Source: a virus (Duplodnaviria > Heunggongvirae > Uroviricota > Caudoviricetes). Taken from it: a DNA stretch of 64,000 nucleotides. This document shows, piece after piece, positions 3,001 through 50,506 of this stretch. Every line of letters starts with the position of its first letter. Positions within the stretch are counted from its first letter, which is position 1. The position numbers were made by a program, and so were the translations under genes. Where the stretch lies: IMG/VR virus record IMGVR_UViG_3300006217_000028. One strand, given 5' to 3'. The notes below the pieces were generated by a model. The model had not been told where the DNA came from. It saw nothing but the letters and a program-made list of their open reading frames with translations, and ran no database searches.

Positions 3001-6000
3001 CGGGTGTTGGTGCCCTGGCCGGAGTAATACTTGCGCTGACGGCCGCTGATATCCTGAACGGAATTGCCTCCTGGATAACTGGAGGCTCATCGCTCTCGGA
3101 TTTCGCAGAACAGCTTGTCCCCTTTGGTGAGGCCATCGCGGCTTTCTCGGATGTGGTCGATGGGAAAATCAATGAGGGCGCTGTGTCCGCGGCAGCAAAC
3201 GCCGGAGCCATACTGGCTGAGCTGGCAGGCAATCTGCCCAACAGCGGCGGGGTCTTGGGTTGGATCATGGGCAATAACGACCTGGACGACTTTGCATCAA
3301 GGTTGGAGCCTTTCGCGGACGCTATTGTAACATTCTCGTCAAAAGTAGATGGTAAAGTCAGTGAGAGTGCGGTTCAGGCGGCAGCGAATGCTGGTGCAAC
3401 ATTAGCTGCTCTTGCGTCCGATTTGCCTAACACTGGCGGCGTACTCGGCTGGCTTGTGGGCGAAAACAACATCGATGATTTTGCGTCTCGACTGGTTCCG
3501 TTTGGAGAGGCTATTGCCGAGTTTTCATCCACGGTAAACGGAAAGGTCAGCGAAAGTGCCGTACAGGCTGCCGCTAATGCCGGCGCTACTTTGACCGCTC
3601 TTGCGAAGGATATTCCAAACAGCGGAGGGGTCTTGGGTTGGATTATGGGCGAAAACGACATTGATGCGTTTGGCTCACAACTGATTTCTTTCGGGGAGAA
3701 CTTTGCCGCCTACTCCGACAAAATGAGCAGCGTTGATTCAAATATCGTTACCGCGACTACAAATGCCGCGAAAGCTCTTGTATCATTGAGCAACAGCCTC
3801 CCTGAAAAGGGCGGATGGTTCTCTGGAGATATGAGCCTTTCTGACTTTGGCAGCGATATTTCCTTATTTGGCTCTTTCTTTGCCGGATTCTACAGTTCCA
3901 TAAGCGGGATTGACCCTTCGACTTTATCGGCGGTTATCGCCGAATTTGAGAAGATGGTATCTTTAGCAAATGGCGCGAGCAGCGTTGACTTTACCGGGAT
4001 GTCTACCTTTGGCCAGTCTTTGACCAATCTTGGGCAGGCTGGTGTCAATGGCTTTATCAAAGCGTTTACTGACGCTATGCCGCGTGTGAATGTACAAGGC
4101 GCTGCTTTGATTACCAATGCAAAAAACGGAGTTCAAACAGGGGTGTCTGGTTTCTACTCCCTTGGTATTAACGCCGGCCAAGGCTTTATCAATGGTCTCT
4201 ATGCCATGAACGGTCCTGCTTGGTCCGCGGGCTGGAGTATTGGCAACGCTGCACTCATGGCCGCAAAAGCCGCTCTGGACAGCCACTCTCCTTCCCGAGA
4301 GTTCATCTATTTGGGGCAGCATACCGGCGAGGGCTATGTGATTGGCGTTAATAATAGTATTGGTTCTGTCAAGAATGCTACATCGGCGATGATGAACCAA
4401 TCGATTGCTACCGCCAAAAAAGGAATCAACACCTTCGAGGACTGGCTGGATGAGCGGAAATACTACAACGAAATCTCCATCAAAGAAGAGCTTGCCGGTT
4501 GGGAACAGCTCCAGAAACAGTACAAGGAAGGTTCCGAGGAACGCAAGAAAATCGACCGGGAAGTGTTCCGTTGTCAAAATGAGCTTGTTAAAGCGACTTA
4601 TCAGTTCTCTGTTGACTGGATTGAAAAAGAGAAGTATTATAAGCGGCTCAGTCTGGAGGACGAGCTTGCCGCATGGAAACGGGTTCAGTCCCGGTATATG
4701 GCGGGCTCCGAGGAACGCAAACAAGCTGACCGGGAAGTGTTCCGGGTCGAGAATGAGCTGGAAGACGAGCGCTACCAGAAGAGACTTGACCACATCGACA
4801 ACGAGGTATTCTATGGCCGCATGAGTGTTCAGGAAGAATTGGCCGCTCTGGAAGAACTTCAGAAACAGTATGAAGTGAACTCCGAGAAATACCTTGAAAT
4901 CGATAAAATGATCTACTCCAAACGGAAAGAGGTCGTTAAGGAGTTTTACGATAATCTCAACGAGTACATCAATAACGAGAAGACGTATAACCGGATGGGT
5001 GATATAGGCGAGCTTGGCACAATCCTTGCGTATATTGACCAGTTCGAAGAAGGCACCGACGAATGGAAAAAGGGCATGACGGCGGCGTACAATCTGGTTA
5101 TTTCCATAGGCGAAGCGCAGCTCCAGTATGAAAAGGACGTGGCCGCTGCCGAAGCGGATCACGCTGAGAAACGCCTGCAACTGGAACGAGAGTATGCTGA
5201 CTATGTAAAAGAGGTCAATCAACAGCTTGAGGCAGATATAGAAAGCCTTAACAAGAAGTATGAGGATGCCGTCCAGTCCCGAGCCGACAGCCTGTACCGG
5301 TCTTATGGGCTGTTCGATGAGGTAAAACAGAAGGATGACGTAAGCGGCGATACGCTTATCAACAACCTGAAGGGCCAGGTCGCCGAGTTTGACGAATGGC
5401 AAGCTATGCTGAAGTCTCTTGCTGCCAAAGGTGTCAGCGGCGAATTGATTGAGGAACTTCAGGAGATGGGGCCGTCCTCGATTGCCAACGTCCGTGCCCT
5501 GAACGGTATGACCTCTACCCAGCTCACCCAGTATGTGAATCTTTGGTCCACAAAGCACCGTCAGGCCAAAGACCAGGCAACCAGTGAACTGGAAGGAATG
5601 CGGGTCGAAACCCAGAAACAGATTGCACAGCTCAAGGTTGATGCGGCAAATGACCTGGAGGAGTACAAGAAAGTCTGGCAGACAAAAATGTCCGAGTTGG
5701 ACGCCTCCTTACAGAAGACGCTTAAAGATCTGGAAACGGATTTCCATAAGTCTATTGGCCTGATTTCAAAATACACCCAGGAAGAGCTTAACACAATGGC
5801 TGGGAACGTCAGTCAGCTTTTGGGCGAAAAAGGGTTCAATATTGGAACAAATCTACTTCAGGGAATCATCAAGGGGTTTGAAGAGGAAAAACCCAACTTG
5901 ATTAACGCTTCAAAAGCTGTTGCGGCTAACATTGTAGATCCTATCGAAGGAGAACTGGATATCCATTCTCCTTCCCGGGTTACATATCAATTAGCGGTGT

Positions 6001-6479
6001 TTGCGGTACGCGGGTTCGTTAATGCTCTTAATGATATGTGCCCGAGCGTATATGACGCGAGTAATAACCTTGCCGAGGCATCCAGTGAAGGTATTGGAAA
6101 AGCTATCCAGTATATGATGCGGCTGCTTGATGGCGACATCGAAACACAGCCAACGATTCGTCCAGTGCTGGATTTGTCTGATGTGTCAAGTGCGGCAGCC
6201 AAGCTGGATAACCTGCTTTATGCAGAACGAACCGCACGGCTCGCAAGCGATCTTGAATTGAGTATGAACCGAAAATCTCCGGCGACGGGCAGAATTGTTA
6301 TAGACAACGGGGATGTGGTAGAGGCCATCCAAGATCTCAGGCGGGATATGGCTGCCATGTCAGACGCAGTCACGCATATGCAGGTAGTCTTGGACACAGG
6401 TGTTCTCGCTGGCGAAATGACCGGGCCTTTGGACAGGAATCTTGGCCGCAGGCAAATCTATAGAGGAAGGGGGAACTGA
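75..6479 (+). CDS. Tail tape measure protein (about 2135 aa). The reading frame is open back to nt 1, so the true start may lie upstream of the window; TTG at 66 and ATG at 75 are candidate starts.
   Basis: Very long ORF. Tandem hydrophobic repeats (about 6 copies of LSWDELGKGLLGIGVLLGEI-like units at nt 1150-2100). About 4 copies of DDFASRLVPFGEAIAEFSS...VDGKVSESAVQAAANAGATL (nt 3060-3700). Coiled-coil repeats YYxxxSxxEELAxWExLQKQY (nt 4450-4900). Two HSPSREF / IHSPSR motifs typical of TMP C-terminal regions. Lies immediately upstream of Dit/Tal. Confidence 0.85.
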   Translation: MLDIVGQAFSAVFHAAKPLLGIFGNLSGGVLGVTGSWGEWLVNLDESIRKNDTFGKAIQKVIDLVKGAKTAVDEFVQNAKDKFNLPTLDEMKVSVKDFVKSLKENFKLPGFESFHSALEKAHKNLSSLSNIARSVKNAVANVFKSIGKAAADFDIAHAFQSILGGITTFIGGIAKIVSGLIKDVFTNIGQADLGGLFQLAGAFATGGIGIGIKKFFDSMSDAFGGVDDLFDSADGMLKKVTGILDGVKDCFKAYQTELKASALLKIAGAIGILALSLTAIAGIDAEKLNGALGAITILFTDLMASMAIFSKISGEMKGATKTTTLMLGLAVSIRILVSALKSVAELEWEDIGKGLLGVTVLMGEMVAALKLLGSDGKKVGKGATNVLVFAAAIKVLASACKDLGQLSWDELGKGLLGIGVLLGEIDIFLNTAKFSGKTITTATGIVVLSAAIKILASACKDFGQMSWEGIAKGLGGIGVLLAEITAFTKLNGSAKGMVSTGVSLIAIGAAMKIFASAVSDFGQMSWEQIGKGLAAMGGALAEVAIAVNVMPKNMLSVGAGLVVVGAALEIISHVLGKMGGMSWEEIAKGLVVIGGALAELSIALNLMKGTLTGSAALLVASAAIAVLTPSLAILGAMSWEAIAKGLVTIAGAFTIMGVAGAVLGPLTPTILALSGAFALFGVGVAAIGVGLVAAGAGLSAIAVGLTALAAATAADVGAIVASLSLIVTGIADLIPVVIGKIGEGIVEFGKAIALGAPSLGEAAKAIILTLVDVLVECVPQIADGALQLIDGVLAALVQYTPSIVNSLFQFLILLLDGVADNLPALIQSAMNVIMAFFQGVVDALSGLDVDTLIKGVAGVGIMSAMMFALSAVASLVPGALIGVAGMAAVIAEMALLLAAIGGLAQIPGLNWLITEGGNLLQNVGTAIGQFIGGIAGGFMTGVSSQFPQIATDLSNFMTNLQPFIDGARGIDSSMMAGVGALAGVILALTAADILNGIASWITGGSSLSDFAEQLVPFGEAIAAFSDVVDGKINEGAVSAAANAGAILAELAGNLPNSGGVLGWIMGNNDLDDFASRLEPFADAIVTFSSKVDGKVSESAVQAAANAGATLAALASDLPNTGGVLGWLVGENNIDDFASRLVPFGEAIAEFSSTVNGKVSESAVQAAANAGATLTALAKDIPNSGGVLGWIMGENDIDAFGSQLISFGENFAAYSDKMSSVDSNIVTATTNAAKALVSLSNSLPEKGGWFSGDMSLSDFGSDISLFGSFFAGFYSSISGIDPSTLSAVIAEFEKMVSLANGASSVDFTGMSTFGQSLTNLGQAGVNGFIKAFTDAMPRVNVQGAALITNAKNGVQTGVSGFYSLGINAGQGFINGLYAMNGPAWSAGWSIGNAALMAAKAALDSHSPSREFIYLGQHTGEGYVIGVNNSIGSVKNATSAMMNQSIATAKKGINTFEDWLDERKYYNEISIKEELAGWEQLQKQYKEGSEERKKIDREVFRCQNELVKATYQFSVDWIEKEKYYKRLSLEDELAAWKRVQSRYMAGSEERKQADREVFRVENELEDERYQKRLDHIDNEVFYGRMSVQEELAALEELQKQYEVNSEKYLEIDKMIYSKRKEVVKEFYDNLNEYINNEKTYNRMGDIGELGTILAYIDQFEEGTDEWKKGMTAAYNLVISIGEAQLQYEKDVAAAEADHAEKRLQLEREYADYVKEVNQQLEADIESLNKKYEDAVQSRADSLYRSYGLFDEVKQKDDVSGDTLINNLKGQVAEFDEWQAMLKSLAAKGVSGELIEELQEMGPSSIANVRALNGMTSTQLTQYVNLWSTKHRQAKDQATSELEGMRVETQKQIAQLKVDAANDLEEYKKVWQTKMSELDASLQKTLKDLETDFHKSIGLISKYTQEELNTMAGNVSQLLGEKGFNIGTNLLQGIIKGFEEEKPNLINASKAVAANIVDPIEGELDIHSPSRVTYQLAVFAVRGFVNALNDMCPSVYDASNNLAEASSEGIGKAIQYMMRLLDGDIETQPTIRPVLDLSDVSSAAAKLDNLLYAERTARLASDLELSMNRKSPATGRIVIDNGDVVEAIQDLRRDMAAMSDAVTHMQVVLDTGVLAGEMTGPLDRNLGRRQIYRGRGN

Positions 6480-6480
6480 G

Positions 6481-7257
6481 ATGTCAAAAGAATCCAAGCA
6501 ATACCATTCTGTCATTTTCGGGGAAAAGAACTCCTGGGATGATTGGCACCTGATCCCCACCTCCCGGCCGGTGTTCAATCCGCCCAAACCGAAGCTCAAA
6601 ACCGTGGATGTTCCAGGTGGGGACGGCCTTCTGGATGTTTCCGAGCTCCTCACCGGATATCCGGTTTATGAGAACCGCACAGGTTCCATTGAGTTTATGG
6701 TCCATAACGGATATGAGGAATGGCAGGTGGCCTATTCGAACATCATGGACTATCTTCACGGGCAAAGGCTCCGGGCCGTTCTGGAAGACGACCCTGATTA
6801 TTTCTACGAGGGCCGCTATTCAGTCAACATCTGGAAATCAGATAAGTCCCACTCTTTGATTACCATTGACTACAGCGTAAACCCCTACAAGCAGTCCGTT
6901 CTCTCTACCACGGATGAATGGCTGTGGGACCCGTTTAATTTCCACACAGGCATGGCTCTGACAAGGACCTTCAAAAACATTCCGGTTACTGAAATCTATG
7001 AGCCCCACCACTTCATAGACGACATTATGGGCCGGGCTCCGGTATGCCCTACTTTCGATATCCAAACCGAAACAGGAGGCGGAATCTATATCCGTTTCGT
7101 GAATGAGCATTTGGATATTGACATTGAAAAACATGCTCCGGATGGGAAAAGACGCTATCCGGAGTTTGTCTTTCGTGGAAAAGCGCCGGTCATCTACTTC
7201 AAGACTGTAACCGGCCGGGGCACTGTGTCGGTAGATTACCGTTCAGGGAGGTTGTGA
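6481..7257 (+). CDS. Distal tail protein (Dit)-like phage tail family protein
   Basis: 259-aa ORF directly after the TMP in the position conserved for Dit in siphoviruses. ATG 6481 is preceded by GGAAGGGGGAA. The ORF-track start at 6442 overlaps the TMP and lacks an RBS. Confidence 0.55.
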   Translation: MSKESKQYHSVIFGEKNSWDDWHLIPTSRPVFNPPKPKLKTVDVPGGDGLLDVSELLTGYPVYENRTGSIEFMVHNGYEEWQVAYSNIMDYLHGQRLRAVLEDDPDYFYEGRYSVNIWKSDKSHSLITIDYSVNPYKQSVLSTTDEWLWDPFNFHTGMALTRTFKNIPVTEIYEPHHFIDDIMGRAPVCPTFDIQTETGGGIYIRFVNEHLDIDIEKHAPDGKRRYPEFVFRGKAPVIYFKTVTGRGTVSVDYRSGRL

Positions 7258-10346: not shown

Positions 10347-11449
10347 TGGCAGATATTTCTTCACAGCTCCAAAAAATACTGGAAGCCATATATGGCGAAG
10401 AGGTCCGAGGTTCTATCCATGACGCTCTGGCGGCCATGAATGTGGAATCCAACGCCGCCATGGAGTTTGCGGCTACGGCAAAGGATTCCGCTATGAACAG
10501 CGCTGCTGCCGCAAAGGCATCAGAGGAGAAAGCAGCCCTGTCCGAATCAGCAGCCAAAGAATCCGAAACTAACGCCGCTGCATCAGAGCAAGCAGCGTTT
10601 GAAAGCGCGTCAGAATCTATTGACGCGGCAAATGCCGCTAAAAATTCTGAAATAAATTCCGCCGCATCCGAGGCCGCAGCTAAGGCATCCGAAACCAATG
10701 CCGCCAACTCCGAATCAGCAGCAAAAGAATCGGAGACTAACGCTGCCGTATCGGCAGCCACTGCTACAGAGAAAGCGGCGGCATCCTCCGCCTCAGCAGA
10801 GGCCGCAAAAGCGTCCGAGGAAAAAGCCGCCGTATCAGAGAATGCCGCTAAGACTTCGGAGACCAACGCCGCATCCTCTGCCTCCACCGCGTCTGAAAAA
10901 GCGGCCGAGGCGTCTTCTTCCGCGTCTGCCGCAAAGGTTTCCGAAGCGAACGCCTCTGATTCTGAAGTGGCCGCGAAAAAGTCAGAGGTTAACGCGTCCG
11001 CATCCGCCAATGCCGCTGCGGCAAGCGAAACAAACGCAAAGGCCTCTGAAACAAGCGCCGCTCAATCTGCCGCTCACGCCATACAGGAGAGAGAAGACTA
11101 CTCCCAATGGGTGGAACAGCAGGAGGCCGCTTTTACTCAGTGGTTCGATGGTATTAAGGAACAATTTGGCGACGACGTTGCGGGCAATCTTACCAACCAG
11201 ATTAACAAAGAAGAAATCGACAGAATCCTGAGTGCGGGTTTTGCGGACGGCGTCAAGGAGTTCAGTGAGGACGGCACAACTATCACCATGACCGCTCCGG
11301 ATGGCCGGACTCTTACCAAGACCTTCACCAACAGCTTTCAGACCATGACGGCTGTTCTCAGGAAAGCCGATAAGACCGTTGCTGCCACACTGACAAAAGA
11401 GTTTGCGGCAGACGGAAGTACAATCAGCACGACTATAACCTACTCATGA
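10346..11449 (+). CDS. Structural protein with Ala/Ser/Glu-rich low-complexity repeats (putative fibre shaft or stalk)
   Basis: 367 aa. The central 200 aa are 10-11-residue repeats (AAKxSETNAAxSExAAKESETNAA). Globular N- and C-terminal ends. Located between Tal and the DGR-targeted fibre gene. Confidence 0.5.
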   Translation: MADISSQLQKILEAIYGEEVRGSIHDALAAMNVESNAAMEFAATAKDSAMNSAAAAKASEEKAALSESAAKESETNAAASEQAAFESASESIDAANAAKNSEINSAASEAAAKASETNAANSESAAKESETNAAVSAATATEKAAASSASAEAAKASEEKAAVSENAAKTSETNAASSASTASEKAAEASSSASAAKVSEANASDSEVAAKKSEVNASASANAAAASETNAKASETSAAQSAAHAIQEREDYSQWVEQQEAAFTQWFDGIKEQFGDDVAGNLTNQINKEEIDRILSAGFADGVKEFSEDGTTITMTAPDGRTLTKTFTNSFQTMTAVLRKADKTVAATLTKEFAADGSTISTTITYS

Positions 11450-11465
11450 AAGGAGAGAATTCAAA

Positions 11466-13976
11466 ATGGCAGAAGAAGATATGCTCTACGGCAAAGCACG
11501 GCATCTTTTCGGCGGCATCGAGCCGTCCAACATGAAAGCTTTTTCCGTAACCGCACCGGGCAGCGGTAGGCCGGTTATCACAGCGGTTCTGCCGGACAAT
11601 ACCGTTATCGATGGTCAGACCCTGTGTACTGTGGCGGGGGCCGTGATTCGCAAAAAGTCCACCGGCTACCCCAAGGACGAGTTCGATGGGGAGAAGGTAG
11701 CGGAAATCGCGGAATCTACTACCTTCACAGACGTCACTGCCAATGCGGACGGCACCTATTATTACGCGGCTTATCCGTTTACCACGCAGGGTGTATATAA
11801 CCGCAACCCGGCTAACCGGGCCGTGTTCAACGAACCAGAGCCTATGGCTGCTTTCACTTCCCGACTGGTATACAGTTCCGCGTCCCAGACCTCCCATGTG
11901 GAGCTGACCGCCACTCTGCCTCGGGGTGCGGCCGGAGCGGTGATTCGTAAATCCACCGTGGGCTATCCACAGGACGAGGAAGACGGCGAGGCGTTCCAGA
12001 ACATCACCGCCAGCACGGTTATCACAGACACAGACGTGGAAGAGGACGTCACCTATTACTATAGCGCCTTTGTCTACACCAGTACCGGAGCTTACAACCG
12101 AGACCCGGCCAACCGGACAAGCTGCACCGTATACGCGGGAGAAGCCCCGGACGACATGGCCGCTTTCAGTGTTGTATGCGACGCGGTCAATCAGGCGAAA
12201 ATCACGGCAACTCTTCCTGGCAACAAGACCGAAGGTGATGTTGAGATTTGCACTGTGGCCGGCGCCATTATTCGCCGCAAGACAGGCAGCTACCCAGTCA
12301 ACGAGACGGACGGCGAGGAAGTTACCGATTTGAAACAGAGCGGTACTTACACCGATATGGGCCTGACCGGCGATACAATCTACTATTACGCCGCTTTCCC
12401 CTACTCCGACCGGGGGATGTTCAACCGTAACCAGACTGCGGAAAATCAGGCAAGCTGTAAGGTGTTCGCTCCGGTTGCTCCCGGCAATATGAAAACATTC
12501 TCTGCCAGTTCCGCGGCCGCCGGCAAAATTGTCCTGACCGCCACTCTGCCGGACAATACCGTAGAGAGCGGGGTGACTACCAGTGCCGTGGCGGGCGTTA
12601 TGATCCGCAGGAAGCTGGACGGCTATCCCGCCAATGAAACAGATGGGACCCTGGTGGCAAACCTGACCGAGAGCGGAACCTACACGGATACGGACATTGT
12701 GGGCGGGCAGATGTACTACTATGGGGCGTTCCCCTATTCCGACAAAGGCCTGTACAATCAAAATGCGGTTCCGGACAATCAGGCCAGCGCCGAGGGTAAG
12801 ACCTATGAGTATCTCTATGGCTATGACCTGGACACTGCCAACAGCAATCCGGCTACCCGGGTCACTTACCCCGCAGACGTGGACAACACGGGCTTTGCCG
12901 CGGCAAAGATGGGAACCAGCGCGTTTAACTATGGCGGCTGGCCCAGCACTCCGGGCGAGAAATTCATGCCCAGGCCCTGTATGCTGACTTTTGCGGGAAA
13001 AGTAGACCACTACCTGAACCCCAATGACTATACAAAGAAAACAGATGGCACGGCCTCTAAAGTTGCGGATACATCCTTTGGCGGAAACGCCATGATGGAA
13101 TGGCCCAAAATCTTTGTAAAGCGTTGGCAGGAGGGCAATATCTACCACTTCCGTGTCTCTGATGTGAAGCTGGATGACGATTTCGAGTGCTGGTCCAACT
13201 ATGACCTCCAGAATCATGAGATTGAGCACTTCTACACGCCAATCTTCTTCGGCTCCAATGTTTCCAGTAAACTTCGCTCCATCAGTGGCCAGGCGAACAG
13301 CGTGTCGACTACTGCTGACCAGGAAATCACCTATGCCAAGGCAAACGGCGCGGACTGGTACACCGAGGTTGTGGCGGACCGTATGCTAATCAACGACTTG
13401 CTGACCATGATGGCCAAGTCTACCGATTTGCAGACCGCGTATGGCTCCGGCAGAACAAAGAGTTCCAACAGCAGCGCGATAGCTCCTGGTACCATGAACA
13501 CAAAAGGAATGTTCTGGGGTTCCACGAATGGTACGGACGGCGTCAAGGTTTTTGGCATGGAAAACTGGTGGGGGAACATTTGGCGGCGTATTGCCGGGTG
13601 GATGCTGGTAAATAGCGTTCAGAAAGTCAAGCTGACTCGCGGAACGAAAGACGGAACTACCGCAGCCGATTATAATACTACCGGCGATGGATATAAGTCT
13701 CTGAGTAATGCTGCGCCTACTGGTTCCAGCGGCGGCTACATTTCAAAATGTAAAACCGAGAAGTTTGGGCGGTTCCCATACGAGTTGTCGGGTTCGGCCA
13801 CAACCTTTGAGTGTGATGCTATGTGGTATTCCACTGGAACACGATACGCGTATGTCGGCGGCGGCTGGAACGATTACCTTCGAGCGGGTCCCTTCTGCGT
13901 GAACCTGGACAATGCGCCGTCGTACTCCAACTCGAGCCGTGGCGCGGCCCTCTCTTGTAAACCGCTTGCGGCCTAG
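11466..13976 (+). CDS. DGR target protein: putative receptor-binding tail fibre with 4-5 tandem about 100-aa Ig/FN3-like repeats and a C-terminal VR-bearing C-type-lectin/FGE-like domain
   Basis: 836 aa. Repeats such as TATLPDNTVxxG..CTVAGAxIRxKxxGYPxxExDGxxV...GTYTD....YYYAAFPYxxxGxxNRN occur 4-5 times (nt 11520-12790). The last about 37 codons are the DGR variable repeat, with ...YAYVGGGWNDYLRAGPFCVNLDNAPSYSNSSRGAAL reminiscent of CLec/FGE-fold VR scaffolds. Confidence 0.75.
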   Translation: MAEEDMLYGKARHLFGGIEPSNMKAFSVTAPGSGRPVITAVLPDNTVIDGQTLCTVAGAVIRKKSTGYPKDEFDGEKVAEIAESTTFTDVTANADGTYYYAAYPFTTQGVYNRNPANRAVFNEPEPMAAFTSRLVYSSASQTSHVELTATLPRGAAGAVIRKSTVGYPQDEEDGEAFQNITASTVITDTDVEEDVTYYYSAFVYTSTGAYNRDPANRTSCTVYAGEAPDDMAAFSVVCDAVNQAKITATLPGNKTEGDVEICTVAGAIIRRKTGSYPVNETDGEEVTDLKQSGTYTDMGLTGDTIYYYAAFPYSDRGMFNRNQTAENQASCKVFAPVAPGNMKTFSASSAAAGKIVLTATLPDNTVESGVTTSAVAGVMIRRKLDGYPANETDGTLVANLTESGTYTDTDIVGGQMYYYGAFPYSDKGLYNQNAVPDNQASAEGKTYEYLYGYDLDTANSNPATRVTYPADVDNTGFAAAKMGTSAFNYGGWPSTPGEKFMPRPCMLTFAGKVDHYLNPNDYTKKTDGTASKVADTSFGGNAMMEWPKIFVKRWQEGNIYHFRVSDVKLDDDFECWSNYDLQNHEIEHFYTPIFFGSNVSSKLRSISGQANSVSTTADQEITYAKANGADWYTEVVADRMLINDLLTMMAKSTDLQTAYGSGRTKSSNSSAIAPGTMNTKGMFWGSTNGTDGVKVFGMENWWGNIWRRIAGWMLVNSVQKVKLTRGTKDGTTAADYNTTGDGYKSLSNAAPTGSSGGYISKCKTEKFGRFPYELSGSATTFECDAMWYSTGTRYAYVGGGWNDYLRAGPFCVNLDNAPSYSNSSRGAALSCKPLAA
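13837..13947 (+). repeat. DGR variable repeat (VR), 3-prime end of the fibre gene
   Basis: About 111 bp roughly 88 percent identical to 14428-14538. At the differing positions the template copy has A, while this copy has G, T or C. Confidence 0.8.
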
Positions 13977-13992
13977 GAGAGGTCTGGAGAAC
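13975..13992 (+). promoter_or_regulatory. Perfect 18-bp palindrome GGAGAACCTAGGTTCTCC just after the VR and fibre stop (possible hairpin/cruciform target-recognition element)
   Basis: Its reverse complement equals itself. Lies 27 bp after the VR homology ends. No following T-run, so it is not a classic terminator. Confidence 0.5.
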
Positions 13993-14019
13993 CTAGGTTC
14001 TCCGGGAAAACGATGGCTA

Positions 14020-14343
14020 CTAGAGCATGGACGCTAGGCATTTAAGTTCGGCTACTTCATCCGCAGTTATTTCAGCGTCATCCCACTCTGAGACTTCAAC
14101 GGCGTGCATGGCGAATGCCGCGTATAGTTTCGGATCGTCCTTGATTTTGTTGACGAATAGTGACGCGCGATTTAATGCGGATTTGTTCATGGCCATCATG
14201 TCTTGTTGGGAAATGCTATATTTTACATGCACGTCTTCGATAACCTGTCTGAAGATGTAGCTGGCCAGTGCTTTTGCGTGAGCATCCGGTATGCTGTATG
14301 CTGTTCGTAAGAATAAAGCGCCCAGTTCATCCATAAGTTCCAT
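14020..14343 (-). CDS. Hypothetical 107-aa helical protein encoded antisense between VR and TR (candidate DGR accessory gene; not recognisably Avd)
   Basis: Clean ORF on the minus strand. The overlapping + strand ORF (14027-14260) is Ser-rich and looks spurious. The protein is acidic and helical, unlike basic Avd proteins. Confidence 0.4.
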   Translation of the reverse strand: MELMDELGALFLRTAYSIPDAHAKALASYIFRQVIEDVHVKYSISQQDMMAMNKSALNRASLFVNKIKDDPKLYAAFAMHAVEVSEWDDAEITADEVAELKCLASML

Positions 14344-14427
14344 CTCCTTGCTGCTTTTTCATAGATTATATCATTCTGTGGAAAAAGATGCAAGGTTCTG
14401 ATTTTAGGGGTATGCGCTGCGCCTGCG

Positions 14428-14538
14428 CGCGTATGTCGGCGGCAACTGGAACAATAACCTTCAAGCGGGTCCCTTCTACGTGAACCTGAACAATGCGCCG
14501 TCGAACTCCAACTCGAACATTGGCGCGGCCCAATCTTA
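14428..14538 (+). repeat. DGR template repeat (TR)
   Basis: Non-coding copy of the VR placed 130 bp upstream of the RT gene. Rich in AAC/AAT codons in the VR frame (AAC TGG AAC AAT AAC ... AAC TCC AAC TCG AAC ATT). About 14 mismatches to the VR, 13 of them at TR adenines. Confidence 0.8.
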
Positions 14539-14670
14539 TCCAATACATGGTAATATGTTTCTCGATTTTTAATGCAGCGCATATTCCTCACCCCTTGGTG
14601 AAAATCAACTCGATGCAAGCGCCTGCCGGTAGCTGAAAAAGGACGAAAGCGGGCGAGAGGATAAGAGAGA

Positions 14671-15774
14671 ATGAAATCCTACACTCACTTGTATGAAATA
14701 TGTACATCCGAACAAAACAGAATAAGAAGCGTGCAGTCGGCCAAGAAGAGCAAGCGTATCCGAAACATCATCAAGGCCCGGCATTTGTCTGACGCGGCTC
14801 TGGCGGAAAAATCCCGTGATTGGATTATCAATTACGAGATCAAGGAGCATGACCCCATTTATATTTTAGATGGGATCAGCCATAAGCAGCGGACAATCTA
14901 TGTGCCGACCTTGGAAGAGCTTATTGTCCAGCACTGCGTAGTGAACGCTCTCAAGCCCATGTTCTATAAAGGTATGTATGAGCACAGCTATGCCAGTCTG
15001 CCGGGACGAGGCTCCCACAAAGCCAAAAAGGTCATTGAGAAGTGGATTCGCACTGACGGGAAGAATGTAAAGTATGTCTTAAAAATGGACATCAGGCATT
15101 TCTTTGACAGCGTTCCCCACGATGTTCTCAAGGCAAAGCTCTCCAAACACATTCATGACGAGCTTATGCTGGATTTGCTGTTTAAGATTATTGACACCAC
15201 GGACGAGGGGATTCCTCTGGGGTTTCACACCTCCCAGTGGCTGGCAAACTGGTTCCTGCAAGGATTGGACCATTACATCAAGGAACAGCTCCAAGCAGCC
15301 CATTATGTCCGGTATATGGATGATATGGTGATTTTCGGCAGCAATAAAAAAGCCCTCCACAAGATGCGTCAGGCAATTTCGGAGTATCTTGGAAAAGAGC
15401 TTGGTCTTGCGTTAAAAGGAAATTGGCAGGTGTTCCGGTTCTCCTATGTGAAGAATGGCGAATACCTGGGGAGAGACCTTGACTTTATGGGATTCCGGTT
15501 TTACCGGGACCACACTGTTTTGCGGAGAAGTATCATGTACAAGGCCAGTAGGAAAGCGAAAAAACTTGCGTCAAAGGCCAGACCAACTGTTTACGACGCC
15601 CGGCAGATGCTATCGTATCTTGGCTGGATCAAGTCCACAGACACCTATTCTATGTATTCAAAATGGATTAAACCTTACGTCAACTTCAAGAACTTGAAAC
15701 GAAAGGTATCCAAGTCTGACAAGAATAATCCCTTACAGATATATTACCGGCTGGCGAGGGTTTATCAAACATAA
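14671..15774 (+). CDS. DGR reverse transcriptase
   Basis: 367 aa. RT motifs RTIYVPTLEELIVQHCVVNALKP (motifs 1-2). GIPLGFHTSQWLANWFL matches the DGR-specific (I/L)GxxxSQ form of the QGxxxSP motif. YVRYMDDMVIFG is the YxDD catalytic motif. The size is typical of DGR RTs. Confidence 0.85.
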   Translation: MKSYTHLYEICTSEQNRIRSVQSAKKSKRIRNIIKARHLSDAALAEKSRDWIINYEIKEHDPIYILDGISHKQRTIYVPTLEELIVQHCVVNALKPMFYKGMYEHSYASLPGRGSHKAKKVIEKWIRTDGKNVKYVLKMDIRHFFDSVPHDVLKAKLSKHIHDELMLDLLFKIIDTTDEGIPLGFHTSQWLANWFLQGLDHYIKEQLQAAHYVRYMDDMVIFGSNKKALHKMRQAISEYLGKELGLALKGNWQVFRFSYVKNGEYLGRDLDFMGFRFYRDHTVLRRSIMYKASRKAKKLASKARPTVYDARQMLSYLGWIKSTDTYSMYSKWIKPYVNFKNLKRKVSKSDKNNPLQIYYRLARVYQT

Positions 15775-15789: not shown

Positions 15790-16080
15790 ATGGAACCTAC
15801 TTACCGGTATTCCGAAAGCACCGTCCGGCCAGAGCAGGTCCAGATTTCCGGCGATACCGTATATCTGCGCAAGGACATCAAAGAATCCAAGCGCGAAGAT
15901 ATGAACGGCGGGACAGTCAGCTATTGGACGTACCAGGAGGCGGCTATGTCAACCGAGGAGTTCAACCGGAATTCCAGCGCTCTTCTCCTGAAGAGGCAGT
16001 TGAACAGCGACGGCGACATGCTGGCCATTATGGAGGCCATGGCTGATATGTATGACGTGCTGGCTATGCTGATGGAGTAA
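15790..16080 (+). CDS. Hypothetical phage protein (96 aa)
   Basis: RBS AAAAGGAGG 7 nt upstream. Confidence 0.5.
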   Translation: MEPTYRYSESTVRPEQVQISGDTVYLRKDIKESKREDMNGGTVSYWTYQEAAMSTEEFNRNSSALLLKRQLNSDGDMLAIMEAMADMYDVLAMLME

Positions 16081-17338: not shown

Positions 17339-17590
17339 ATGGATTTTGGAAAGGCAATCGAGGCTGTAAAGGCGGGTAGGAAAGCATCCCGCGCTGGATG
17401 GAACGGCAAAGGCCAGTATATCGAGCTGGCTGCCTGCGTCAGCTATAAAAATGCAGCCGGAGAAATCATCAACGTAAACCATGACGCGCTCGGCAACAAT
17501 GCGATTGCGTTTGTCGGTACTTCCGGCGTGCAGCTCGGTTGGCTGGCCTCTCAGGCAGATATGCTTGCCGAGGATTGGCAGATTCTGTAA
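17339..17590 (+). CDS. DUF2829-like phage protein
   Basis: MDFGKAIEAVKAGRKASRAGWNGKGQYI... is the characteristic DUF2829 N-terminus. Confidence 0.5.
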   Translation: MDFGKAIEAVKAGRKASRAGWNGKGQYIELAACVSYKNAAGEIINVNHDALGNNAIAFVGTSGVQLGWLASQADMLAEDWQIL

Positions 17591-47896: not shown

Positions 47897-48068
47897 CTAT
47901 CCGACTGATATTTTGGTAGTTGATGGTATGGGAGTATCAGTTGAAGAGACTATGGAAATTATTAAGGCACATAAGGAGGGTTATGGGCCTAATTCTTTCC
48001 ATGACGTCCCTTTTGACATATACATCATTAAAAAATTGGAGGTACCTATCTATGAAATTCTTTGTTGA
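47883..48068 (+). CDS. Hypothetical protein (61 aa)
   Basis: Internal ATG of track ORF 47841-48068. Confidence 0.3.
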   Translation: MSEVNYPTDILVVDGMGVSVEETMEIIKAHKEGYGPNSFHDVPFDIYIIKKLEVPIYEILC

Positions 48069-48984
48069 GAAAATTGAAAAGACCTACACTCGCTACGGCG
48101 CGGAATACACAGAAGTTGAACGCCGCCTCCGGCTTGATCGAATCATCATCTGCGGTGTAGCAGCCATCGTTGCTCTCGGACTGATATTTACCAGCTTCAC
48201 TGTTGTTGGGGCGGGCCATACTGGCGTGGTGTCCACGTTTGGTCAGGTAAGCGAGGACGTTTTGCAAGAGGGGTTCCACTTCAAGGCGCCCTGGCAGAAA
48301 GTCACCAAGATGGACAACCGGATCGTCAAGCTGGAGGTATCCACTGAGGCTTTCAGCTCAGACCTGCAAACGGTCAACGTGAACTTGGCCGTCAACTATC
48401 GCGTTGACACGGCGAAGTCTTTTTCCATTGTCAAGAACGTGGGCACCAACTATGAGGATGTACTTATTACGCCAGCAGTCAACGAGGTTATGAAGTCGAT
48501 TATGGCCAGCTATACTGCTGAGCAGAGCATTACCAACCGAAACATCATTTCTACAGCCTTGCTCGATGAATTGAACGATAAACTTTCAGACAGCGGAATT
48601 TATGTTTCAGATATTAACATCATTGACTTCGACTTTAGCGACGTATATGTGGCAGCTATCGAATCCAAGCAGGTTGCAGAACAAGAGAAACTTCGGGCAA
48701 AAATCGAACAGGAGCAGCTTACTATGGAAAAAGAGTCGGAGTCTGCCCGTCGGATAATCGACGCCGAAGCCGCTGCGGAGGTTGCCAAAATTGAGGCGGA
48801 AGCGGCGGCGTATGCTGGTGAGAAAGAGGCTGCCGCAAATGAAAAGATTGCGGAATCTCTGACACGGCCGCTCATCGAGTATTACAAAATCCAGCAGTGG
48901 GATGGTAAGCTCCCTTCGGTTACAGGAGCGGATACCATTATAACGATGGGTAACGAGAAATCGGACGAGAGCAAGGAGGAGTAA
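48052..48984 (+). CDS. SPFH / band-7 (prohibitin-like) domain membrane protein
   Basis: 310 aa. N-terminal transmembrane helix. GHTGVVSTFGQV...GFHFKAPWQKV...VNYRVD are SPFH core motifs. C-terminal Ala/Glu coiled coil. RBS GGAGGT. Confidence 0.7.
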   Translation: MKFFVEKIEKTYTRYGAEYTEVERRLRLDRIIICGVAAIVALGLIFTSFTVVGAGHTGVVSTFGQVSEDVLQEGFHFKAPWQKVTKMDNRIVKLEVSTEAFSSDLQTVNVNLAVNYRVDTAKSFSIVKNVGTNYEDVLITPAVNEVMKSIMASYTAEQSITNRNIISTALLDELNDKLSDSGIYVSDINIIDFDFSDVYVAAIESKQVAEQEKLRAKIEQEQLTMEKESESARRIIDAEAAAEVAKIEAEAAAYAGEKEAAANEKIAESLTRPLIEYYKIQQWDGKLPSVTGADTIITMGNEKSDESKEE

Positions 48985-49302: not shown

Positions 49303-49551
49303 ATGAACGAAACTGGCAAAGAAATCTTGTGTACCGGGTGCGCCCACAGAGAAGTATGCGAGCGAAAAAACGAATACCAGCACGCCGCGGTACTTGCAAA
49401 CGACATCATCGAAGAATTGATGGATAGAGTACGTTTACAGTTGCGCACTATTCCTTGGGTTCATGTACGGTCACCTGAAGTAAATTGCGATTATTTCATG
49501 AGGCGGCGCAAAATGGCGACGGTATGGGACAACGGAGGTACCAATGAGTAA
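49303..49551 (+). CDS. Hypothetical protein (82 aa)
   Basis: RBS AGGAAGGGG. Confidence 0.45.
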   Translation: MNETGKEILCTGCAHREVCERKNEYQHAAVLANDIIEELMDRVRLQLRTIPWVHVRSPEVNCDYFMRRRKMATVWDNGGTNE

Positions 49552-50506
49552 AGAATACGATGAATACCTACAAGAGCATCGATCAAACCTCTGCTTTGGT
49601 CTGGAATGGCTTAAGCAGAATCTTCCTGAGGTGCTTGAAGGAGCGTACAATATTGACTGGCTCGTTCAGAACGCCCATGACCATTCTAAGTACGGGTCGG
49701 AAGAATACAACGCCTACGATACATATTTCTACACAAACATCAAATCGTATCGCGTCCAGCAGGATTTTCAGCTAGCCTGGCTCCATCACATCCATCATAA
49801 CCCTCACCATTGGCAGCACTGGGTGCTTATCAACGACGATCCAGCAGAAGGAACTGTCTGCCTTGAGATGCCGCGATGCTATATCATTGAAATGATTTGC
49901 GACTGGTGGTCTTTCAGTTGGGCTAAGAATGATTTGACGGAGATATTTCGTTGGTATGACGAGCATCGGGAACACATACTGCTGCATAAGAACACTCGAG
50001 AGATGGTCGAGGATATTCTTGGCAAAATGGCGGAAAAACTTGACTATACGGGCGAGTTGTGTCATCATGGTGTAAAAGGGCAGAAGTGGGGTGTACGCAA
50101 TGGGCCGCCGTATCCTTTAGGCGAAGGTGATAAGTCGGCGGAGGAGAGAAAAGCTGATGGTAATAGAACTAACATCGTCAAACAGGCGATTCAGTCGGGA
50201 AAAGTTTCGACTAAAATTAACCGTGAAAAGCAAAAAAGACATACACAAGATGACCACACGCCAGGAAAAAGCTATATTCATGGAGATTTAATAGAGGCGC
50301 AACACCTTGTGGATACACTCAGTGGTACAGGGAAAGCACTTGAAGGGCGAGACGGAGCTTGGAACCATCGCGAAAGAGTTTCACATAGCGACATAATCGG
50401 TACGCATGTAGACGAAAAGGGTGTCGAAACTCCATCTAAAAATGCGATAATCGTTTATTCCAAGACTGGAAGTCACATTTATCCAGCAAAGAAGAAAGGA
50501 GACTAA
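49544..50506 (+). CDS. Hypothetical protein (320 aa) with His-rich segment HHIHHNPHHWQHW
   Basis: RBS GGAGGT. The C-terminal 20 aa recur in degenerate form at 50841-50900. Confidence 0.5.
   Translation: MSKEYDEYLQEHRSNLCFGLEWLKQNLPEVLEGAYNIDWLVQNAHDHSKYGSEEYNAYDTYFYTNIKSYRVQQDFQLAWLHHIHHNPHHWQHWVLINDDPAEGTVCLEMPRCYIIEMICDWWSFSWAKNDLTEIFRWYDEHREHILLHKNTREMVEDILGKMAEKLDYTGELCHHGVKGQKWGVRNGPPYPLGEGDKSAEERKADGNRTNIVKQAIQSGKVSTKINREKQKRHTQDDHTPGKSYIHGDLIEAQHLVDTLSGTGKALEGRDGAWNHRERVSHSDIIGTHVDEKGVETPSKNAIIVYSKTGSHIYPAKKKGD

What the first reader, a model, noticed from the sequence alone, without database searches (positions are those of the whole stretch)
13837..14538. Adenine-specific VR/TR mismatch pattern with a single non-A exception
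The TR-to-VR changes are: AA to GG (14443-14444); A to G and A to T in ACAATAACC vs ACGATTACC; five single A to G or A to T changes; AAC-ATT vs AGC-CGT (A to G, A to C, plus one T to G that is the only non-adenine change); AA to TC in CCCAATCT vs CCCTCTCT; and A to G just before homology ends. The 3-prime ends diverge into different short GC-rich stretches (VR GGCGCGGCCCTCTCTTGTAAACC vs TR GGCGCGGCCCAATCTTATCCAAT). That is where an IMH / IMH* pair would be expected.
Basis: seen in the sequence. Interest (0 to 1): 0.7.

Follow-up and report, generated by a model that had tools for sequence, protein, structure and literature searches.

The report
Diversity-generating retroelement in a gut phage
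This is a standard diversity-generating retroelement in a phage of a gut Clostridia bacterium: a reverse transcriptase copies a template repeat, making errors only at adenines, and overwrites the tip of the phage's receptor-binding tail protein. It is an ordinary member of a large, already described family.

Summary
VR (13847-13958, the 3' end of an 836-aa tail protein gene) and TR (14428-14539) align without gaps at an offset of 581. They differ at 14 positions: 13 are TR adenines and one is T-to-G (Fisher p = 1.5e-8). TR lies 132 nt upstream of an intact reverse transcriptase gene, and an Rfam RT-18 RNA fills the spacer between them.

Seventy-one related TR/VR pairs show the same pattern: 60% of A sites differ, against 0.35% of non-A sites. 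They also refine the reading. The three 3'-most "A changes" (AA to TC, A to G) are not mutagenesis products.

One non-A exception is ordinary: 21% of family members have at least one.

The element has no Avd gene, which matches the known Architecture A. TR is bracketed by a covarying 14-bp RNA duplex, analogous to the Bordetella phage "cPRT Stop". The gene between VR and TR is an unrelated reverse-strand insertion.

It is a new member of a known kind, of low to moderate interest.

The parts
11466..13976 (+). Target gene: 836-aa tail / receptor-binding protein. The N-terminal half holds four ~100-aa repeats. VR is at the C-terminus.
   Evidence: ORF. PHROG 5302 'tail protein' 4e-108. More than 3,000 homologs, with hypervariable residues exactly at the AAY-derived positions.
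13847..13940 (+). VR body (variable repeat, the region that gets rewritten)
   Evidence: Ten A-derived differences plus one T>G against TR. 76.6% identical to sister phage L081, while the rest of the gene is 98.7% identical.
13941..13963 (+). IMH: shared GC-rich GGCGCGGCCC followed by TCTCTTGTAAACC
   Evidence: VR bases at 13951, 13952 and 13957 are essentially invariant in the family whatever the TR base is. TR polymorphisms are mirrored in VR up to col 104 (13950) and not beyond.
13964..14006 (+). Conserved non-coding element downstream of IMH, including the inverted repeat GGAGAACC/GGTTCTCC (13986-14003)
   Evidence: Nearly invariant sequence in 34 distinct relatives. DNA fold -15.7 kcal/mol, z = -2.1. 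A role in target recognition is inferred from the Bordetella phage DGR (PMC5758913).
14020..14343 (-). Lineage-specific inserted gene (107-aa ORF, probable start 14334). Not part of the DGR core.
   Evidence: Absent from about 70 relatives, whose VR-TR start-to-start spacing is ~215 nt. L081 carries a different insert at the same site. Acidic, pI 4.8. No Pfam, PHROG, NCBIfam or PDB match.
14407..14420 (+). 5' arm of the RNA duplex that brackets TR (GGGGUAUGCGCUGC)
   Evidence: Pairs with 14574-14587. In 30 distinct relatives 91% of cells are paired, 8 of 14 pairs show compensatory changes, and 0 of 500 shuffles reach the observed score.
14428..14531 (+). TR body (template repeat, the copied part)
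14522..14544 (+). IMH*: the same GC-rich run followed by AATCTTATCCAAT
   Evidence: Fixed differences from IMH at 14532, 14533 and 14538. The CTTATC motif is conserved even where the RT is only 40-55% identical.
14574..14587 (+). 3' arm of the TR-bracketing duplex (GCAGCGCAUAUUCC)
14589..14669 (+). Spacer RNA: Rfam RT-18 (RF03021)
   Evidence: 45.0 bits against a gathering score of 41.3, E = 1e-6. The same family is found at the same place in 8 of 12 relatives tested.
14671..15774 (+). Reverse transcriptase, 367 aa
   Evidence: Pfam RVT_1 3e-20, PHROG 1423 2e-105. DGR signature LGFHTSQ at residue 183 and YMDD at 215. Below the cut-off of every NCBIfam group II, retron, Drt and Abi model.

Best explanation
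This is a diversity-generating retroelement of the accessory-gene-free type (target-VR, TR, spacer RNA, RT). It is carried by a roughly 60-kb temperate tailed phage of Acutalibacter-like Oscillospiraceae.

Proposed mechanism:
1. An RNA spanning about 14400 to the RT gene folds so that the sequence just upstream of TR pairs with spacer 14574-14587, closing TR into a loop. A small hairpin, an A-rich run and the RT-18 stem follow.
2. The RT binds this RNA and copies TR from its 3' end (about 14531) back towards the duplex, inserting random bases opposite adenines only.
3. The cDNA replaces VR between IMH (13941 onward) and the 5' end of homology (13847). This recodes up to 11 Asn-type codons at the tip of the receptor-binding protein.
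4. Direction (TR to VR only) is set by the 3' ends. IMH* belongs to the RNA template. IMH, together with its conserved downstream inverted repeat, marks the DNA target.

What is shown: the anatomy, the adenine specificity, the concerted evolution of TR and VR, the fixed IMH/IMH* differences, and the covarying duplex.

What is inferred by analogy with the Bordetella phage BPP-1 DGR: self-priming, the stop function of the duplex, target recognition by the inverted repeat, and activity without Avd.

The single T>G is most likely a rare non-adenine RT error or an ordinary point mutation that arose after the last homing event.
For: - Adenine-specific, directional mismatches.
- A sites fall at codon positions 1 and 2.
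- The RT is intact, with the DGR motif.
- RT-18 scores above Rfam's gathering threshold in the spacer, here and in relatives.
- 71 related TR/VR pairs: 1094 of 1819 A sites are changed, against 19 of 5494 non-A sites.
- Non-A TR polymorphisms are mirrored in the cognate VR up to col 104, both in the window versus L081 and family-wide.
- The VR body is 76.6% identical to L081, while the upstream part of the gene is 98.7% identical. 16 of the 22 differences fall at TR-A columns.
- Window-specific TR 14456 is A where the family has G, and it is matched by VR T. This indicates homing after that TR change.
- IMH and IMH* differ at fixed positions.
- The TR-bracketing duplex covaries. It matches the described 'cPRT Stop' arrangement of duplex, stem-loop and adenosines (bioRxiv 10.1101/2023.10.23.563531).
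- No Avd family hit among ORFs of 75-220 aa starting between 1 and about 52.8 kb. Accessory-free DGRs are a known class (PMC5758913).
Against: - No direct evidence of current activity. There is a single sequence and no within-population VR variants from this sample.
- The promoter of the TR RNA was not found. The reverse-strand insert may interrupt read-through from the tail gene.
- Small ORFs starting beyond about 52.8 kb were not scanned for Avd.
- The priming site is unknown.
Confidence: 0.93

Rival explanations
1. The element is a fossil. The VR/TR pattern records past DGR activity, but the element no longer works in this phage.
For: - One non-A mismatch.
- A foreign reverse-strand gene sits between VR and TR, where relatives have only about 105 nt.
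- No promoter was detected for the TR RNA.
- A sister prophage (L002/L083, Acutalibacter sp. 1XD8-36) has deleted the target gene, VR, TR and the RT N-terminus.
Against: - The RT ORF and its catalytic motifs are intact.
- All RNA elements are intact.
- VR is in frame.
- VR records a window-specific TR change at col 29.
- L001 and L081 carry similar inserts and keep all the parts.
Confidence: 0.12
2. The T>G exception is a relic. TR 14520 was once A (an AAT codon, as in 65 of 72 relatives), VR received G by normal A-mutagenesis, and TR later mutated A to T.
For: - The column is A in most family TRs.
- Arg at this codon is a common outcome in relatives, 14 of 114.
- Non-A mismatches in the family are enriched next to A sites (12 of 19, p = 0.013).
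Against: - T at this column is shared by the window, L001 and L081, and L081's VR has T.
- The window's VR reflects a younger, window-specific TR change at col 29.
- This column lies nearest to IMH, so every homing event should rewrite it.
Confidence: 0.15
3. The two copies are a plain duplication that diverged by random drift or by selection, with no retroelement involved.
For: None beyond the existence of a 112-nt direct repeat.
Against: - 13 of 14 differences fall at adenines of one copy only (p = 1.5e-8).
- The same asymmetry is seen in 71 independent pairs.
- An RT and a known RT-associated RNA are adjacent.
Confidence: 0.01
4. The element does need an accessory protein, supplied either by the 96-aa gene just after the RT (15790-16080) or by the reverse 107-aa gene between VR and TR.
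For: - The 96-aa gene follows the RT within about 15-30 nt in most of the 114 of 160 related loci that have both genes (up to ~570 nt in a few), down to 41% RT identity.
- The 107-aa protein occupies the position that avd holds in BPP-1 and is a confident helical bundle.
Against: - Homologs of the 96-aa gene directly follow the tail protein gene in phages that have no RT or TR (L162, L163). It is therefore a phage gene, and the DGR was inserted next to it.
Confidence: 0.08

Closest known systems
Bordetella phage BPP-1 DGR (mtd-VR, avd, TR, brt)
   Same: - Target is a phage receptor-binding tail protein with VR at its C-terminus.
- AAY codons and adenine-only mutagenesis.
- GC-rich IMH/IMH* with fixed differences.
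- Inverted repeat downstream of IMH.
- Spacer of about 130-140 nt between TR and RT.
- An RNA duplex between the sequence upstream of TR and the spacer, followed by a small stem-loop and adenosines.
   Different: - No avd gene.
- The spacer RNA belongs to Rfam RT-18, not RT-10.
- The RT is unrelated at a close level.
- In most relatives VR and TR are separated by only about 105 nt.
Accessory-free DGRs (Architecture A1; avd-lacking Lineage 3) of Wu et al. 2018, PMC5758913
   Same: Core layout of target-VR, TR, RT on one strand with no avd, HRDC, MSL or CH1 gene. Usually zero or one non-A substitution.
   Different: Membership of their named lineage was not tested, because there is no RT tree against their set. 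Here an unrelated gene is inserted between VR and TR.
Rfam RT-18 RNA (RF03021; Weinberg et al. 2017, PMC5737381)
   Same: Full-length match above the gathering score, immediately upstream of an RT gene.
   Different: The original paper tied only RT-10 to a DGR and speculated about the other RT motifs. Here RT-18 lies in the TR-RT spacer of a clear DGR, and its first hairpin abuts the TR-bracketing duplex, which the Rfam model does not include.
'cPRT Stop' duplex of the BPP-1 DGR RNA (bioRxiv 10.1101/2023.10.23.563531)
   Same: About 13-14 bp pairing between the sequence upstream of TR and the spacer, followed by a short stem-loop and adenosines. TR/VR homology ends 7 nt from the duplex.
   Different: That survey covered only DGRs with Avd. 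This one has none. Function here is inferred, not tested.

Membership tests
Diversity-generating retroelement | TR/VR repeat pair whose differences fall at adenines of the TR copy | tested here: met
   13 of 14 differences are at TR-A, p = 1.5e-8. Same pattern in 71 relatives.
Diversity-generating retroelement | Adjacent reverse transcriptase with the DGR motif [I/V/L]GxxxSQ and YxDD | tested here: met
   RVT_1 3e-20. LGFHTSQ at residue 183 and YMDD at 215. Below the cut-off of all group II, retron, Drt and Abi models.
Diversity-generating retroelement | VR inside a protein-coding target, with TR adenines at codon positions 1 and 2 (AAY codons) | tested here: met
   24 of 25 adenines at positions 1 or 2; 10 AAY codons; VR at the C-terminus of a tail protein.
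Diversity-generating retroelement | IMH at the VR 3' end and a non-identical IMH* at the TR 3' end, starting with a GC-rich segment | tested here: met
   Shared GGCGCGGCCC followed by fixed VR/TR differences, conserved over the family.
Diversity-generating retroelement | Inverted repeat downstream of IMH (present in about a third of DGRs) | tested here: met
   GGAGAACC/GGTTCTCC at 13986-14003 within a conserved element. No covariation, because the sequence is nearly invariant. Function not testable here.
Diversity-generating retroelement | Ongoing mutagenic retrohoming | not testable with these tools
   Comparative support only: concerted TR/VR evolution and a hyperdivergent VR between 98.7%-identical genes.
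Diversity-generating retroelement | Variable protein with a C-type lectin fold displaying VR | tested here: inconclusive
   AF2 model pLDDT 36. No PDB sequence match. Only the motif pattern GGxW...GPF...L...S...GAA is suggestive.
Avd-containing DGRs (Architecture B, BPP-1 type) | avd gene in the cassette | tested here: not met
   No Avd family hit in neighbouring ORFs or in any 75-220-aa ORF starting between 1 and about 52.8 kb. The gene between VR and TR is acidic, reverse-oriented and structurally unlike any PDB chain.
Rfam RT-18 | Score at or above the family gathering threshold over the full model | tested here: met
   45.0 against 41.3 bits, model positions 1-84.

The most novel reading that the evidence does not exclude
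This abundant gut-phage DGR clade is a true two-component system: RT plus an RNA carrying TR, the bracketing duplex and the RT-18 fold. The RNA structure would take over the role Avd plays in BPP-1. The invariant IMH* tail UCUUAUCC (14534-14541) would pair with GGAUAAGA (14659-14666) to place a priming adenosine, which would explain in RNA terms why only TR, and not the VR transcript, can serve as template.
Probability: 0.35. Interest if true: 0.5.

Novelty: new member of a known kind. Interest (0 to 1): 0.25.

Why it matters
- It adds a cleanly dissected example of the accessory-free DGR type, which is common in gut Clostridia phages. In this collection the RT matched 326 viral contigs, and the target protein family has more than 3,000 members.
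- Family comparison separates true mutagenesis sites from fixed IMH/IMH* differences. Single-pair inspection cannot do this.
- It links Rfam RT-18 to a DGR spacer.
- It shows that a 'cPRT Stop'-like duplex also exists in a DGR without Avd.
- A compact RT-plus-RNA DGR would be attractive for the targeted-mutagenesis tools now being built from BPP-1 parts.

Tried and rejected
1. The 107-aa reverse gene as an Avd analogue: rejected. It is absent in relatives, acidic, and has no fold match.
2. The 96-aa gene after the RT as a DGR accessory: rejected. It follows the tail gene in phages without a DGR.
3. Structure of the target's C-terminal 436 aa: the model is unusable (pLDDT 36), so no fold search was run. 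PDB sequence and profile searches were empty.
4. Near-identity search of the phage GenBank collection: no match.
5. A second VR in the window: none found.
6. Pairing of the IMH* tail with GGAUAAGA: exact complement here, with a few compensatory cases, but the anchored test is weak (3.23 against 2.98 of 6 flank pairs). Kept only as an idea.
7. Covariation in the stems downstream of VR: none, because the sequence is nearly invariant.
8. Sigma-70 promoter scan of 13800-14800: nothing found.
9. My GS linkers in the concatenated-ORF Pfam scans produced spurious 'Serglycin' hits. These should be ignored.
Full report
**1. Observation**

A 112-nt direct repeat aligns without gaps at an offset of 581: 13847-13958 against 14428-14539. 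There are 14 mismatches. Thirteen are at adenines of the downstream copy (A>G x8, A>T x3, A>C x2). One is T>G (14520 against 13939).

Thirteen of 28 adenines are changed, against 1 of 83 other bases (Fisher p = 1.5e-8). The upstream copy is the last 112 nt before the end of an 836-aa ORF (11466-13976). In that reading frame, 24 of the 25 adenines of the variable body are at codon position 1 or 2, and ten codons are AAY.

- AA>GG is at 14444-14445.
- There are four isolated single changes, not five.
- Homology starts at 13847.
- The GC-rich run is shared by both copies rather than different between them.

**2. What surrounds it**

- The ORF is a phage tail protein (PHROG 5302, 4e-108). It is preceded by other tail proteins.
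- A 367-aa reverse transcriptase gene starts 132 nt after the downstream copy (RVT_1 3e-20; PHROG 1423 2e-105). It carries the DGR signature LGFHTSQ and YMDD. It falls below the curated cut-off of every group II, retron, Drt and Abi model.
- The spacer 14589-14669 matches Rfam RT-18 above its gathering score (45.0 against 41.3 bits).
- The window as a whole is a temperate phage or prophage. It encodes an integrase, a holin, an ssDNA-binding protein and others.
- Its nearest relatives are in a mouse-gut Oscillospiraceae genome bin and in Acutalibacter isolates.

So the upstream copy is VR, the downstream copy is TR, and the whole is a diversity-generating retroelement.

**3. Family evidence**

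The RT matched 326 viral contigs and 113 genome contigs, of which 80 loci each were kept. In 71 distinct TR/VR pairs, 1094 of 1819 TR-adenine sites differ from VR, against 19 of 5494 non-adenine sites.

Non-adenine TR polymorphisms are mirrored in each cognate VR up to column 104. That column is the end of the GC-rich run.

The sister phage L081 gives the clearest contrast:

| Region | Identity to L081 |
|---|---|
| Target gene upstream of VR | 98.7% |
| VR body | 76.6% |

Sixteen of the 22 VR-body differences fall at TR-adenine columns. Homologous proteins are hypervariable exactly at the AAY-derived residues and invariant between them. This is the expected signature of repeated TR-to-VR transfer with adenine mutagenesis.

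**4. IMH and IMH***

At mutagenised columns, VR shows all four bases (entropy 1-2 bits). The last three "A changes" behave differently:
- Opposite TR 14533, VR is C in 58 of 60 pairs.
- Opposite TR 14538, VR is G in 70 of 70.
- Opposite TR 14532, VR is T in 4 of the 5 pairs whose TR has A there, and C in the fifth. In the other pairs both copies have T.

These are fixed differences, not mutagenesis outcomes. Information transfer therefore stops at about 13950/14531.

IMH continues into a roughly 45-nt non-coding element that is nearly invariant in 34 distinct relatives. It contains the inverted repeat GGAGAACC/GGTTCTCC. By analogy with the Bordetella phage DGR (PMC5758913), this marks the DNA target. 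That step is inferred.

**5. The single non-A exception**

It is not unusual. Fifteen of 71 family pairs (21%) have at least one non-A mismatch, and a published survey found them in 23% of DGRs (PMC5758913).

Column 93 is A in 65 of 72 family TRs, so a relic of an older TR was considered. Three points argue against it:
- T is shared by the window, L001 and L081, and L081's VR has T.
- The window's VR already reflects a younger, window-specific TR change (14456 G>A, read out as T).
- This column lies next to IMH, so every homing event should rewrite it.

A rare RT error at a non-adenine is more likely. Such errors run at about 0.5% at uracil for the Bordetella enzyme, which is near the detection baseline (PMC7826257). 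A later point mutation is also possible. In the family, non-A mismatches are enriched next to adenines (12 of 19, p = 0.013). The window's exception fits that pattern, since it follows the mutated A at 14519.

**6. RNA anatomy**

GGGGUAUGCGCUGC (14407-14420, ending 7 nt before TR) pairs with GCAGCGCAUAUUCC (14574-14587), so TR is enclosed in a loop. I aligned 30 distinct relatives by anchors that are independent of the variable positions. The result:
- 91% of cells are paired.
- 8 of 14 pairs show compensatory changes.
- 0 of 500 shuffles reach the observed covariation.
- Slid registers collapse.

The 3' arm is followed by the hairpin CACC-CCUU-GGUG and by AAAAU, which are the first elements of RT-18. 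This is the arrangement described as the 'cPRT Stop' in the Bordetella phage RNA: an upstream:spacer duplex, then a stem-loop, then adenosines. That work surveyed only DGRs with Avd (bioRxiv 10.1101/2023.10.23.563531). The stop and scaffold function here is inferred.

**7. Accessory genes**

No Avd family hit was found among the neighbouring ORFs, or among any ORF of 75-220 aa starting between 1 and about 52.8 kb. Small ORFs beyond that were not scanned.

In about 70 relatives, VR and TR are only about 105 nt apart with no gene between them.

The window's 107-aa reverse-strand gene (14020-14343) is an insertion:
- L081 has a different small gene at the same spot.
- A homolog of the 107-aa gene in another phage is likewise a lone reverse gene.
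- The protein is acidic and folds confidently into five helices (pLDDT 94).
- It has no structural neighbour.

The 96-aa gene after the RT is widely syntenic. However, it also follows the tail gene directly in phages that have no RT or TR. It is therefore a phage gene, and TR-RT was inserted next to it.

The cassette thus corresponds to the known accessory-free Architecture A (29% of DGRs, PMC5758913).

**8. Verdict**

The finding is real and correctly interpreted. It is a canonical DGR of a well-populated, already catalogued type, so a specialist would not be surprised. The added value is modest:
- IMH/IMH* defined by family comparison.
- RT-18 tied to a DGR spacer.
- A covarying TR-bracketing duplex in a DGR without Avd.
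- A permissive insertion site between VR and TR.

Activity, the priming site, Avd independence and the target fold remain untested.

Noticed in passing
window 14020-14343 (-), with L081:4458-4898 for comparison: The gap between the conserved post-VR element and TR is an insertion hot-spot. The window carries a reverse 107-aa acidic helical protein. By eye it has an extended -10 promoter (TGaTATAAT at 14373-14365, TTGCAT at 14393-14388), which is below the scan tool's threshold. L081 carries an unrelated forward 65-aa acidic ORF with its own promoter and terminator at the same place. The 107-aa family has about 80 homologs, including a 5539-aa protein with 7 copies of the domain. It has no Pfam, PHROG or PDB relative.
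   Followed up: partly
window 17339-17590 (+): An 83-aa protein matching Pfam PF11195, the Thoeris anti-defense 2 (Tad2)-like domain, at 1.3e-19. It lies about 1.6 kb downstream of the DGR.
   Followed up: no
L002 / L083 (Acutalibacter sp. 1XD8-36) against window 10604-14891: A closely related prophage (RT remnant 98% identical) has a clean deletion joining window 10604 to about 14891. This removes the target gene, VR, TR and the first 75 RT codons, so the DGR and its target were lost together.
   Followed up: partly
window 15790-16080 (+): A 96-aa gene lies 15-30 nt after the RT in most of the 114 of 160 related loci that have both genes. In phages without a DGR it directly follows the tail protein gene (L162, L163). 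This marks the point where TR-RT was inserted.
   Followed up: yes
window 11466-12750 (+): The N-terminal half of the target protein consists of four ~100-110-aa repeats (motif G/S-YP-x-(D/N)E-x-DGE ... YYY-x-AFPY). Homologs of 617, 738 and 836 aa differ in repeat number.
   Followed up: no
window 60799-63618 (+): A 939-aa protein with a weak hit to the RNA-dependent RNA polymerase family (PF05183, 2.3e-4, below cut-off) and a C-terminal helix-turn-helix. It might be a single-subunit phage RNA polymerase.
   Followed up: no
window 49544-50506 (+) and 47920-48984 (+): A DUF5662 + Ntox50 (bacterial toxin 50) protein and an SPFH/Band 7 protein, both in the phage's early or accessory region.
   Followed up: no
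window 14534-14541 and 14659-14666: The IMH* tail TCTTATCC is the exact reverse complement of GGATAAGA, which lies 5 nt upstream of the RT start codon. Both are nearly invariant across DGRs with 40-100% RT identity. A few lineages show compensatory changes, but the overall test is weak.
   Followed up: partly
L167:2899-3987 and 5388-6605: A related metagenomic phage contig carries two RVT_1 genes 1.4 kb apart, downstream of the same tail gene.
   Followed up: no
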